7,931 bases of DNA from Octopus sinensis (Eukaryota), in the NCBI RefSeq assembly GCF_006345805.1, contig NW_021828537.1:1-7931 (forward strand). Reading direction: 5' to 3'. Positions 1,012-7,698 of this stretch are shown here, one piece after another. The stretch's first letter is position 1. Each line of letters starts with the position of its first letter. The position numbers were made by a program, and so were the translations under genes. The notes below the pieces were generated by a model, which saw nothing but the letters and a program-made list of their open reading frames with translations, had not been told where the DNA came from and did no database searches.

Positions 1012-1066
1012 TAGCAAAAACTGTCTGATGACGGCAACGAGAAACTCAGAGTAACAGATTTTGTTG
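1012..1066 (+). ncRNA. Minimal type I hammerhead-like motif with degenerate stem II
   Basis: Stem I is CUGU (1021-1024) / ACAG (1054-1057), extended past an A-A mismatch by UAGCAAAA/UUUUGUUG. Core CUGAUGA 1025-1031; stem II region CG-GCAA-CG-A; GAAA 1041-1044; near-palindromic stem III ACUC-A-GAGU (1044-1052); triplet GUA 1051-1053. Confidence 0.6.
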
Positions 1067-3443: not shown

Positions 3444-3450
3444 TATATAT
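3235..3450. repeat. (CA)n followed by (TA)n microsatellite
   Basis: Directly visible. Confidence 0.96.
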
Positions 3451-3905
3451 TATTAAACTCTTTAATGTGCATAAAACGGAAGCATAAACATTGTGGGTTA
3501 AATTCAGCTTTGACATAAATATGGAATTACTCTTTTGGGTTTTAAAATTGATTTATTCGCTTACGTGGATGTATAGTATAACTGTATTATAATTGTCTAA
3601 TTTATATACTCATACGCATATAATTTTGTAAGCGCTTGTATATATATGTATATGTATGAATATATATATATTGAACCTTGTATCGTGAATTTTTGATATG
3701 TTAGTAGACATTATTATAATATGTATGTTCTGTTGAAAATTATCGTTAATGCAATAACATTTTTGTTACTGATAAACATAGTAGTGTATATACGTTCTAA
3801 TATATTTACATAAGTATACGACGCATGGTATATCCAATGTAATATATTGTTCAATGGTGTTCATTAATGTATTTTGCGCATGTGAATAGTATGTACACTT
3901 TGCTT

Positions 3906-4087
<182 letters not shown>

Positions 4088-4191
4088 GTGTTATTTTGGA
4101 TATTTGTTTATTATTTATTTGTATATATTAAGTAATACGTGTGCGGCACGTTTAGTATATTAATATTATTATTATATTTTTAAAGTTAATT

Positions 4192-4335
4192 ATAACCTCT
4201 GACGAAGCCTATGGTTCTTTTAACATATAAGTATTATTTTTTTTTAATGCCTACGACCCTAGTATGTTGACATCTATAGGCAATGAAAATTAGATTCACT
4301 TTTGACCATAGGCTGAAACAGCTGTAAGAAGTCAT
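4192..4335 (+). ncRNA. Type I hammerhead-like motif with 10-bp stem II enclosing an about 89-nt insertion
   Basis: Core CUGACGA 4199-4205. Perfect stem II AGCCUAUGGU (4206-4215) / ACCAUAGGCU (4305-4314) abuts both core halves. GAAA 4315-4318; palindromic stem III ACAGCUGU 4318-4325; triplet GUA 4324-4326. Stem I is weak (AUAACCU / AG[AA]GUCAU). Confidence 0.7.
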
Positions 4336-4414
4336 TTCTGGATTTCAATAATTTATAATATGACTTTTAAAAACTGTATTTGTATTATTATCTTATCTAT
4401 TGATTTATATAATA

Positions 4415-4812
4415 CTAGCACTATCGCCGGCGTTGCTCGGGTTTGTAAGGGAAATAACTATATAATCATTTTTAGAGATGTAAAGTATAATAGCCATCTC
4501 AATATGGCTAACCACAAAAAGGAGGGGGGGTGTTACTGTAGCTTTTTACGTTGAGATTTATAATAAATTTTTAGAGAGTTACTCTTCCCTTATTTATGCC
4601 AAAAATGCATTAAAAATGGGAAAAATTGATGGTAATTTTTTTTTTAAATCGTAGACTCATCGTAGACGCGCGCTAATACCCAGAAGGGCTCGATATGTAT
4701 CACGACTATAAGATACCCGGTTTTGGTTAAACTGCACCGCAAAATGTGGGGAGTATTAGGAATCTAAATCGTAGGAGACAGACAGCACACAACCTCACTT
4801 TTATATAAAAGA
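4415..4812 (-). mobile_element. Non-autonomous Helitron, 398 bp, both termini present
   Basis: Minus strand begins A|TCTTTTATATAAAA (TC at 4812-4811) and ends with the GC-rich hairpin CCG(A)GC-AAC-GCCGG (4440-4427), then 8 nt, then CTAG|T (4418-4415). Inserted between A and T without a target duplication, which are the canonical Helitron hallmarks. No RepHel coding sequence. Confidence 0.8.
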
Positions 4813-5159
4813 TTTGTATGCTTTTGATGTTCACATTTGTAAAATGAATAAATAATCTAACATTATAATATCCGTAAGTTGATGAACAAACTAAATTTGT
4901 TTCTCCATTTTCTTATTTGTATTATAAATTTACGGTAAAAATATTTCTTTACCTTCACCCGTTTAATACAATAAATGAATTAATTGCATTGCAATTAATG
5001 TATTAAGAATTTGGGTACTTTACCAACAGTATATTGGATAAATGATATCCCATAGTGGGTTACACCCATAACCCCTATCTTACTTTGTACTTTATATATA
5101 TATATATATATGCATATACACACATACATAGTCATATATATATGTATATGTATATGTAA

Positions 5160-5420
5160 AAAAATACAAACTGGGACAAGAACGCAAAACATTTAGAAGA
5201 CGATACAAAAACACGATACAAAAACACTTCAATCTTCAGTCAAGAACCGGATCACCCTCGCAATTTCGGTTGATTAATCTTGAGATTGCTCCAACCTGGC
5301 CAGCCCCAAAGGAAAATCTAAGCCAAGCGCATTAGATTCCTTGGAAGAAAGCCTCGAATGTATACAAAACAAGGACGGGAAAACGGACGATGTTACACGA
5401 CTAAGAATACGAAAATACGT
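5160..5420. repeat. Probable fragment of an unclassified interspersed repeat, with a 13-bp tandem duplication
   Basis: Complex sequence starting abruptly after a (TA)/(TATG) tract. ACGATACAAAAAC is duplicated at 5200-5212 and 5213-5225. It resembles a high-copy octopus repeat from memory only. Confidence 0.4.
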
Positions 5421-5554
5421 AAAAACAATAATGATAATAATAATGGTAACAGAAAAGAAGAATTTCGATTATCTCCACATGGTGAGTTGTAATGTATATA
5501 AAAAAAAAAAAAGGAAAATACGCACACTTACATAGTTTTAATATATTTTTTAAT

Positions 5555-5922: not shown

Positions 5923-5991
5923 CATTGAGTGACTAATGGTTTCGCATCCATAAAGTGCTTAGCTTTATAGACAACTCATCAGACTCTAATA
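5923..5991 (-). ncRNA. Type I hammerhead ribozyme motif with intact catalytic core
   Basis: Minus strand: stem I UAUU[A]GAGU (5991-5983) / ACUCAAUG (5930-5923); core CUGAUGA 5982-5976. Stem II GUUGUCUAUAAAG / CUUUAUGGAUGC has 12 bp including G-U pairs, one bulge, a 7-nt loop and G10.1-C11.1 closure. GAAA 5943-5940; minimal stem III AC-CAUUA-GU; triplet GUC 5933-5931. Confidence 0.8.
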
Positions 5992-5992
5992 G

Positions 5993-7698
5993 CGGAGGGT
6001 ATGACCAGAGCCATTAATGGCTCGCCTACTGGAAAAACTCCAGGTTTCGATGGCACCCCACCAGAGATCATCAGATGTGCAAGGATAGTTCTATTTAGCC
6101 ACTTGCTGAAGCTACTGTGTCAGTGCTGGGAGGAGGGGTCAGTGCCACAAGACATGAGAGACTGCAACATTGTTACTCTGTATAAGAACAAAGGAGACAA
6201 AGGCAACTGCAATAACTACCGTGGCATCTCGTTGTTAAGCATCGCTGGGAAGGATTTTGACCGCGTGTCCCTAAACAGGCTACAGAAAATCGCTGAGAGG
6301 TATACCCCGAATCTCAGTGCGGTTTCCGATCAAAACCCACCACCATCGACTTGATCTTCTCTCGCCAACAGCTACAGGAGAAGTGCCGAGAGCAAAAAGG
6401 CAACCATTCTTTCATCACTTCATCGATCTCATAAAGGTTTTTGGCATAGTCATCAAAGATGGCCTGTTCAAAATCCTTTTCAAGATGGGCTGCTGCATGG
6501 CACCCCAAGACTCCTTAGGATGTCCATCATTCATTTCACGCGGACATGAAAGGCGTCGTTCAATTTGATGGTTCTTTTCGGAGGCTTTCAACATACGTAG
6601 CGATGTGAAGCAAGGCCATGTGCTTGCCTTGACCATGTTTGGCATCTTCTTTGCAGTCAAGCTAAAACATGTATTTGGAACATCAACTGATGGTGTTCAC
6701 CTCCACACCAGATCAAGAGGCAAAATGTTTAGTCTGTCGAAGCTGAAAACAAAATCCAGGGTTCGCCAGGTAGTCATCAGAGAAACGCTGTTCGCGAACG
6801 ATGCAACACTGACAGCGCACCCTGACGAGCAAATGCAGCTTCCCGTGGAGTAATGGGTCTAAGTGCCAACCCCACTATCACCATCATTATCTATAGGCCG
6901 GAGGTAGTCCATCAATTCACCTATCTCGGTTCTATCATCGCTGATTACCTCTCTCTGGACCCTGAGATCAACAGGCGAATCGGACAAGCATCCTCCACAT
7001 TTGCCAGGCTCACAAAGAGAGTCTGAAAAAACAAAAATCTGGCTGCAAACACCAATATTGATGTATATAGGGCGTGCGTCCTTGTTACGCTACTTTATGG
7101 TAGTGAGACGTGGAGTCTCTACTCCAGACAGGAACGGCGTCTCAACGTCTTTCACTTCGTTAATTTGAGACGCATCTTGGATATCAAGTGGGCTGACCAC
7201 ATTACCGAAGTCCTCAACTGAGCCAAGATACCCAGCATACTCACCCGCTCCCAGCAGCGTCGTTTGCGTTTGGCTTGGTCATGTACGTCTCATGCCAGAC
7301 AGAAGGATCTCAAAAACTCCCGTATGGGGAATTGGCCACCGGACGCCTGAGCAGGAGAACGATCTCATCTTCGTTTCAAGACGTCTGTTAAAGGGATATA
7401 AAATCGCTTGATCTGGTCGTCCCTGAGATGGGTTAAGGTTGCAAATGATTGCCCACACTGAAGACAAATACTGCAAAAGGGGATGAAGAAAGCGGAAGGA
7501 ACTCGCCACCAAAGAAAAACGCACTCGACGGAAGGAAAATTCAGGAGCGCCGGCAGAGAGCTCCTTCAAATGCAACCGGTGTATAAGTCACTGCCACTCC
7601 TGCGTGAGCCTATAACAGATGCTGCACCACCATCAGCAGCTGACACGATTTCTTCGGGCGCAGATCCATGGCCTCTCGAGAACGACTGATGCCTGCCT
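5993..7698 (+). mobile_element. 5'-truncated, decayed RTE-clade LINE (reverse transcriptase pseudogene)
   Basis: RTE-type motifs appear in order across frames: GKTPGFDG, VPQDMRDCNIVTLYKNKGD, NNYRGISLLSIAGK, QCGFR, FIDLIKVF, VKQGHVLA, LFAND (YADD-box), FTYLGS, LLYGSETW, WLGHV and a C-terminal CxxC. There are many frameshifts and stops, an apparent deletion near 6840-6850, and no APE endonuclease. The 3' end runs into (TA)n. The 5' boundary is uncertain by about 25 bp. Confidence 0.95.

What the first reader, a model, noticed from the sequence alone, without database searches (positions are those of the whole stretch)
4192..4335. Hammerhead with a large structured cargo in loop II
Seen: a perfect 10-bp stem II starts immediately after CUGACGA and ends immediately before GAAAC-AGCU-GUA, enclosing about 89 nt. 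The insert has its own hairpin, UGCCUA (4248-4253) / UAGGCA (4277-4282), with inner UAG[U]AUGU/ACAUCUA. Standard models expect a short loop II. Inference: an expanded-domain HHR class whose insert may bind protein, regulate folding or be a nested insertion. Stem I in this copy looks eroded, so it may be inactive.
Basis: partly seen in the sequence, partly recalled or inferred. Interest (0 to 1): 0.7.

Follow-up and report, generated by a model that had tools for sequence, protein, structure and literature searches.

The report
Long-armed hammerhead of Penelope-like retrotransposons
This is a hammerhead (self-cutting RNA) motif in the end repeat of a Penelope-like jumping gene, whose side arm is an unusually long hairpin shared, with matching base-pair changes, by a whole group of related families rather than being inserted cargo; it likely cuts only weakly, in pairs or with protein help, and cutting is untested.

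Summary
The motif is real: an intact core, a 10-bp closing helix, an 89-nt interior and a palindromic loop III. It lies in a 5'-truncated copy of the terminal repeat (pLTR) of a Hydra-type Penelope-like element; four other copies of the same family still carry RT/endonuclease ORF sequence. The 'cargo' is neither a MITE nor a private insertion: 30 of 30 and 28 of 30 arm matches abut the core halves. Related families forming one protein clade carry 82-112-nt stem II domains predicted to fold as one long interrupted hairpin (17 of 37 pairs show double changes; 81% paired versus 36-40% when slid). Sister families carry 55-60 nt; published Hydra hammerheads 12-26 nt. Stem I is 2-4 bp clade-wide, so it is not eroded in this copy. 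Models put the active monomer 5-13 kcal/mol above the ground state, and insertions show no spike at the cut site, so cleavage is likely weak and dimer- or protein-dependent. I found no paper describing arms this long, but one key paper was unavailable. This scan noted similar long-armed hammerheads before, in this genome and others. Verdict: new variant of a known kind.

The parts
3445..5093 (+). 5'-truncated terminal fragment (3' UTR + pLTR) of a Hydra-type Penelope-like element, family 'A'; no ORF in this copy; interrupted by microsatellite 3905-4086 and a foreign repeat 4414-4813
   Evidence: colinear 85-93% matches to L091, L093-L095, which also carry ORF sequence
4197..4198 (+). stem I 5' strand (2 bp with 4327-4328)
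   Evidence: pairs 9/142 and 10/141 kept in 22 of 23 rows with letters
4199..4205 (+). hammerhead core C3-A9 (CUGACGA)
4206..4215 (+). stem II closing helix, 5' arm (10.1 = A here, G in the family majority)
4216..4304 (+). 89-nt interior of the stem II domain; the family-A version of a clade-wide long interrupted hairpin; 4248-4253/4277-4282 is the conserved third helix, the middle helix is largely degenerate in this family
4305..4314 (+). stem II closing helix, 3' arm (U11.1 at 4314)
4315..4326 (+). core GAAA, 2-bp stem III with AGCU loop (8-nt palindrome 4318-4325), GUA triplet; predicted cut between 4326 and 4327
4327..4328 (+). stem I 3' strand
4414..4813 (+). 400-bp unrelated multicopy repeat inserted into this copy only (Helentron-associated type by recall)
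   Evidence: 1497 candidates, 40 scored, 94-96% over full length
4925..4932 (+). first fixed 3' end of the family (about +210 nt from the cut in uninterrupted copies), followed by (TA)n in many copies
4933..5093 (+). optional 'tail' (about 175-180 nt in uninterrupted copies) ending at the second fixed 3' end, then (TA)n

Best explanation
This is the type I hammerhead motif in the terminal repeat (pLTR) of a Hydra-type Penelope-like retrotransposon, here in a truncated non-coding copy, and its 109-nt stem II domain is a family-wide, vertically inherited arm predicted to fold as one long hairpin that likely acts as a folding scaffold for a ribozyme that would cut only weakly, as a dimer or with protein help. 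Shown: the pLTR context, linkage to an RT/GIY-YIG-type ORF starting about 500 nt downstream of the cut site, conservation of the core across families, paired changes along the arm, and a palindromic loop III. Inferred: in tandem transcripts (pLTR-ORF-pLTR) two motifs pair through the 8-nt palindrome to form stem III; the long arm folds locally and keeps CUGANGA and GAAA together, offsetting stems I and III of only 2-4 bp in very AU-rich RNA; occasional cleavage would trim precursor RNA, while most templates that get inserted are uncleaved at the terminal motif. The window copy has an intact core but no partner or ORF on its contig and is probably a dead insertion.
For: Context: HHR in both pLTRs around a 960-aa open frame with RT motifs, DKT, RWR/RWK and a CxCX5C linker; family A tied to ORF sequence in L091 and L093-L095; two fixed 3' ends, (TA)n flanks and inverted 5' pieces. 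Conservation: across 5 ORF-linked families the core blocks are 80% invariant, against 9-14% in adjacent flanks and 18% in the interior. Structure: in 24 sequences 80.8% of cells pair, against 36-40% with slid partners; 17 of 37 pairs have double changes, 13 of them in interior helices; interior folding z is below -2 in 17 of 24. Position 10.1-11.1 alternates G.U, A-U and G-C. Loop III palindromes change word between families while staying palindromic (the filter required a palindrome). 12 of 14 protein-selected clade loci carry the long-arm motif; the clade is separated from the 55-60-nt families with UFBoot 100. Energetics: the active monomer is 4.9-12.6 kcal/mol above the MFE; a rough dimer estimate closes this to within 3.5 kcal/mol in 20 of 23. 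Family A lost much of the middle helix but has a perfect 10-11-bp outer helix, which fits compensation for stability. Literature: PLE hammerheads are weak and dimer-type (PMC4209133); the PAc hammerhead is protein-assisted and uncleaved RNA is the main template (PMC11167929).
Against: No cleavage, probing or expression data. No spike of 5' ends at the cut: 0 of 30 young-family copies end within 85 nt of it, and 2 of 30 family-A copies end within 2 nt among widely spread ends. In one search two of five measures (pairs with double change 108/500; further pair types 198/500) did not beat shuffles, the structure was hand-drawn from these sequences, and many rows were picked by a core word. A U4C core variant is in 10 of 24 rows, G10.1-C11.1 is absent from most families, and an inactive CUG:CAG register has P>0.5 in 16 of 23 models. 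The scaffold role is not distinguished from protein binding. No outgroup protein from published Hydra elements was in the tree.
Confidence: 0.65

Rival explanations
1. The same ribozyme in the same element, but the long arm is a specific docking site for the element's RT/endonuclease protein (or a host factor) that switches cleavage on or recruits the RNA into the RNP: a natural allosteric hammerhead.
For: Interior helices far from the core keep pairing through double changes; domain length is held at 95-101 nt in most families; most families have a mismatch 4-5 bp above the core; the PAc hammerhead cuts only with protein (PMC11167929, part 2).
Against: Interior sequence is only 18% invariant; family A has a degenerate middle helix yet spread to dozens of copies; the apex was lost at least twice (85-nt forms in L117 and L124); in PAc the required RNA lies downstream, near the RT start sites.
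Confidence: 0.2
2. The core is kept but is catalytically near-silent; the whole unit works as a structured 5' UTR or pLTR element (transcription, export, stability) and cleavage is incidental.
For: No genomic footprint at the cut site; recurrent U4C variant; predicted self-inhibiting fold; hammerhead mutants do not affect PAc insertion in vitro (PMC11167929).
Against: Both core boxes and the cut triplet (GUA/GUC) are far more conserved than any flank, and the 10.1-11.1 pair and palindrome are maintained across families; U4C and U10.1-U11.1 are described as tolerated (PMC3088659 passages).
Confidence: 0.11
3. The arms are terminal inverted repeats of a MITE or another nested insertion that landed between core-like words.
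For: A 10-bp inverted repeat around AT-rich sequence; a true nested repeat exists 90 nt downstream.
Against: 30 of 30 fetched 3'-arm hits (of 49) are followed by the 3' core and 28 of 30 fetched 5'-arm hits (of 46) are preceded by the 5' core; the other two are truncation junctions. Arm sequence differs between families while pairing is kept.
Confidence: 0.02
4. The interior is a spliceosomal intron (GT at 4214, AG at 4310-4311) whose removal yields a compact hammerhead.
For: In family A a GT..AG pair would leave a 4-bp stem II; PLEs carry pLTR introns, and one abuts the hammerhead in D. virilis (PMC4209133).
Against: The GT and AG are not kept in other families and the donor is poor; an intron would not need paired changes.
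Confidence: 0.02

Closest known systems
Hammerheads of Hydra-clade PLEs (Craig et al. 2021, PMC8557442; section 11 and File S2 read)
   Same: Type I, in the pLTR/3' end, short stem III, an extra position on each side of stem II, (TA)n targets, ORF with DKT, RWK/RWR, CxCX5C and no CCHH.
   Different: Published domains between CUGANGA and GAAA are 12-26 nt (26 rows, my count); here 82-112 nt, and 55-60 nt in sister families. Units are 4.6-5.6 kb against <3 kb; tail about 180 nt against 30-40.
Minimal, dimer-type PLE hammerheads, including the D. virilis Penelope variant (Cervera and De la Pena 2014, PMC4209133; parts 1-2 of 4 read)
   Same: Palindromic helix III, short helix I (2 bp in D. virilis), thousands of mostly solo truncated copies.
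   Different: Helix II there is 6-8 bp with G10.1-C11.1; here an interrupted hairpin of about 30 bp, mostly closed by R.U.
PAc (Anolis Poseidon) hammerhead (Frangieh et al. 2024, PMC11167929; parts 1-2 of 4 read)
   Same: Two fixed 3' ends defining a tail; templates uncleaved at the hammerhead.
   Different: The PAc ORF starts inside stem II; here the ATG is 494-513 nt past the cut, so the arm is non-coding.
PLE-X hammerheads of spike mosses (PMC8557442 File S2)
   Same: Enlarged stem II region (about 48-53 nt, my count), flagged as deviating from the canonical structure.
   Different: About half the size, unrelated clade, no covariation reported in the table.
Animal non-LTR retrozymes (PMC7229834 passages; bioRxiv 10.64898/2026.07.22.740005 part 1 of 5)
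   Same: Type I hammerhead related to pLTRs.
   Different: Tandem non-coding units; this element is dispersed and has autonomous ORF-bearing copies.

Membership tests
Type I hammerhead ribozyme | CUGANGA, GAAA and NUH core in type I order | tested here: met
   4199-4205, 4315-4318, 4324-4326; 80% invariant across 5 families
Type I hammerhead ribozyme | Stem II closes directly on the core | tested here: met
   first three pairs kept in 24 of 24
Type I hammerhead ribozyme | Stable stems I and III | tested here: inconclusive
   2-4 bp and 2 bp; monomer probability near 0; plausible only as a dimer or with protein
Type I hammerhead ribozyme | G10.1-C11.1 pair | tested here: not met
   A-U here; G.U 12, A-U 9, G-C 3 of 24. 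Variation at this pair is known (PMC3088659 passage; File S2 of PMC8557442)
Type I hammerhead ribozyme | Loop I / loop II tertiary contact | not tested
   no short loop II exists; a recurrent mismatch 4-5 bp above the core was seen but not tested
Type I hammerhead ribozyme | Site-specific self-cleavage | not testable with these tools
   only assembled contigs of guessed RNA runs were available
Dimer-type PLE hammerhead | Palindromic stem/loop III | tested here: met
   8-nt palindrome 4318-4325; duplex -11.1 kcal/mol
Dimer-type PLE hammerhead | Located in pLTRs flanking an RT-EN ORF | tested here: met
   L116, L117, L118, L121, L125 carry it at both ends; family A in L091, L093-L095
Dimer-type PLE hammerhead | Helix II of 6-8 bp with a short loop | tested here: not met
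   82-112 nt
Hydra-clade PLE | RWK, DKT, CxCX5C linker, CxxC and CxH, no CCHH | tested here: met
   read by eye in P0001 (RWR; RWK in family A) against section 11
Hydra-clade PLE | (TA)n insertion, inverted 5' pieces, optional tail | tested here: met
Hydra-clade PLE | Generally under 3 kb | tested here: not met
   hammerhead-to-hammerhead 4.6-5.6 kb; descriptive rather than defining
Hydra-clade PLE | Phylogenetic placement with published Hydra proteins | not tested
   the tree holds only elements of this genome
MITE | TIR-bounded unit found in unrelated flanks | tested here: not met
Non-LTR retrozyme | Short tandem non-coding units | tested here: not met
   no such array in the window; dispersed copies with ORF-bearing parents

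The most novel reading that the evidence does not exclude
The long stem II arm is a protein-binding module through which the element's own RT/endonuclease switches the hammerhead from a self-inhibited fold (core CUG paired to the loop III palindrome) to the active dimer: a natural allosteric ribozyme that couples RNA processing to RNP assembly, and a sign that PLE hammerheads with long arms are systematically missed by current descriptors.
Probability: 0.15. Interest if true: 0.72.

Novelty: new variant of a known kind. Interest (0 to 1): 0.4.

Why it matters
Standard searches miss it: Rfam gives no hit, and the core-motif search of PMC8557442 allowed a 7-17-nt spacer. PLE hammerheads may therefore be undercounted, and some 'ribozyme-less' or half-core elements may need another look. 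At least about 3,700 exact 3'-core copies lie in this genome. A young family with identical copies and an intact ORF, plus natural 55-, 85-, 100- and 109-nt versions, offers a ready series for testing the open question of what PLE hammerheads do and whether the element's protein activates them.

Tried and rejected
Rfam scan: no hammerhead. RNAalifold on A1 returned only the outer helix plus the inactive CUG:CAG register, so the structure for one search was drawn by hand. Short-loop ('empty' or spliced) version: 0 hits, but the pattern required the minority A at 10.1, so this is weak. RNA evidence: no RNA holder listed; contigs of four guessed-RNA runs gave patchy cover and no GT..AG joint, which is uninformative. 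Presence in other organisms' runs was not established. ADAR-editing signature: no A>G excess in the domain (14 A>G and 16 T>C in family A; 2 and 3 in the young family). Cut-site footprint: none (the young-family rows had a strand slip and were redone). My guess that 3445-3520 encodes the endonuclease end was dropped: the ORF ends kilobases upstream. The tree labels '45' (L132) and '12' (L135) were wrong; their own hammerheads have 55 and 56 nt, so a smooth 12-to-110 ladder is not supported. The loose pattern was not informative. Pfam did not recognise the full ORFs; only a weak GIY-YIG hit on a related fragment (E 0.012). The protein-representative search showed many relatives at 30-45% identity but no names. 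L102 was left out of the tree for low coverage.

Full report
Observation. The window is a whole 7.9-kb contig of a 2.72-Gb animal genome (octopus-like by recall and by the scan's notes, not identified by any search of mine). Rfam finds no hammerhead in the window. The innermost hairpin as drawn would need a 2-nt loop and is predicted only in part.

It is a dispersed repeat. The region has 761 candidates; the 40 scored include this copy and match at 90-96% otherwise. A 17-mer over the 3' core has 1674 exact hits and its G-C variant 2018, with 0 in controls. Family A itself is small: 49 and 46 exact arm hits. In 53 family-A segments position 10.1 is G in 48, both core boxes are intact in 36, and the stem I flanks of the window equal the majority. 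The short stem I is therefore a family trait, and the 'perfect' first pair is a minority allele.

It is the pLTR of a Penelope-like element. Copies have variable 5' ends, inverted 5' pieces and two fixed 3' ends about 180 nt apart, each followed by (TA)n. In L011/L091 the family-A hammerhead and tail run on into an ORF, and L093-L095 carry the same ORF sequence at 84-92%. A protein search gave 151 matches from 150 scored of 2864 candidates. Among 20 fetched long loci, L116 and L117 hold a 960-aa open frame between direct repeats that each contain the long-arm hammerhead. The protein shows RT motifs, RWR (RWK in family A), DKT, a CxCX5C linker, CxxC and CxH, and no CCHH. These are the Hydra-clade features in PMC8557442 section 11. 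Placement against published Hydra proteins was not tested. The ATG lies 494-513 nt past the cut in the 4 of 6 loci where the motif was found.

The 'cargo' is a clade-wide arm. Of 68 3'-core hits in 60 fetched loci, 42 had both core halves, with domains mostly 95-109 nt in about eight subfamilies; the other 26 lacked a recognisable 5' core, mostly through 5' truncation. Of 36 G-C-variant hits, 24 had both halves, with 82-100 nt. A covariance model found the motif in 12 of 14 protein-selected clade loci (four are in the model; L119 and L120 begin downstream of it) and in 0 of 6 outgroup loci at E<0.2. The protein tree separates this clade from the outgroup with UFBoot 100; the outgroup elements have 55-60-nt domains (which correct two tree labels). 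The 85-nt forms lack a 15-nt apical piece, apparently lost at least twice. A MITE is excluded: 30 of 30 and 28 of 30 arm hits abut the core halves.

Structure. On 24 sequences (A1) a hand-drawn hairpin of three helical blocks gives 80.8% paired cells against 36-40% with slid partners, with double changes in 17 of 37 pairs, 13 of them in interior helices. Three of five measures beat all 500 shuffles and two did not (108 and 198 of 500). Relatedness and hand-fitting inflate these figures, and RNAalifold recovered only the outer helix. Interior folding z is below -2 in 17 of 24 sequences; the window copy is -1.3. Across five ORF-linked families the two core blocks are 80% invariant, against 9-14% in adjacent flanks and 18% in the interior (these loci were still labelled by a motif scan).

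Mechanism. Stems I and III are 2-4 bp and 2 bp. The active monomer lies 4.9-12.6 kcal/mol above the MFE, and in 16 of 23 models core CUG pairs with the CAG of the palindrome at P>0.5. A rough dimer estimate closes the gap to within 3.5 kcal/mol in 20 of 23. This matches the weak, dimer-type PLE hammerheads of PMC4209133 and the protein-assisted PAc ribozyme of PMC11167929. Insertions show no footprint of cleavage: all 30 young-family copies run at least 86 nt past the cut, and family-A 5' ends are spread, 2 of 30 within 2 nt (the 30 best of 40 scored, inverted pairs counted separately). I infer that inserted templates are mostly uncleaved at the terminal motif. My best reading of the arm is a folding scaffold: interior sequence is free, pairing is kept, and family A trades a degenerate middle helix for a perfect outer one. 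A specific protein site is the main rival.

Novelty. File S2 of PMC8557442 lists Hydra hammerheads with 12-26-nt domains, and its largest PLE cases have about 48-53 nt (my counts). Seven literature searches and passages of PMC3088659, PMC6765202, PMC7229834 and PMC13282606 showed no natural 80-110-nt stem II in PLEs. Lunse et al. 2017 was not held, and the supplements of PMC4209133 were not seen; either could bear on this. Engineered hammerheads tolerate large stem II inserts (recalled), so the fold itself is not startling. The scan's earlier notes describe similar long-armed PLE hammerheads in this and other genomes; I reached my reading before seeing them and do not count them as support.

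Verdict. A real feature and a new variant of a known kind; interest 0.40.

Noticed in passing
window 1021-1057 (+): A second, compact hammerhead (4-bp stem I, 2-bp stem II with a GCAA loop, stem III like the Hydra rows of File S2); another PLE family.
   Followed up: partly
window 5927-5986 (-): A third hammerhead with a 31-nt, about 13-bp stem II and 4-bp stem I, just upstream of and antisense to the LINE fragment.
   Followed up: partly
window 4414-4813: 400-bp high-copy repeat (1497 candidates, 94-96%) inserted into this copy; Helentron-associated type by recall.
   Followed up: partly
window ~5995-7680 (+): Decayed LINE RT region, RTE-like by recalled motifs in the translations; no family scan was run.
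   Followed up: no
L226-L255 (young 85-nt family): 5' ends or inversion points of 8 of 30 rows (about 6 independent insertions) cluster 574-611 nt upstream of the cut, just downstream of two CCAAT words: a candidate transcription start of the pLTR promoter.
   Followed up: partly
window 4933-5093; L226-L285: The optional tail is about 180 nt in both families examined, against 30-40 bp in print.
   Followed up: partly
L137, L142, L143, L152, L157, L162-L164, L123, L124, L104: A U4C core variant (CCGAAGA) recurs across several subfamilies.
   Followed up: no
L117:2449-5331 (P0001): 960-aa PLE ORF with long Asn-rich insertions and a 3' UTR of about 2 kb; Pfam gives no RT or GIY-YIG hit.
   Followed up: partly
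L090:1289-1399, L066:4003-4109, L019:3093-3197: Other hammerhead families with 70-76-nt stem II and palindromic loop III, not tied to an ORF here.
   Followed up: no
L054:3696-3742, L092:1137-1201: Short-arm hammerheads (12 and 21 nt) with the same AGCU palindrome; their relation to the long-arm clade is unknown.
   Followed up: no
window ~264-729 and ~5160-5480: The first stretch matches many fetched loci at 67-80%; the second looks like another repeat fragment by recall. Neither was examined.
   Followed up: no
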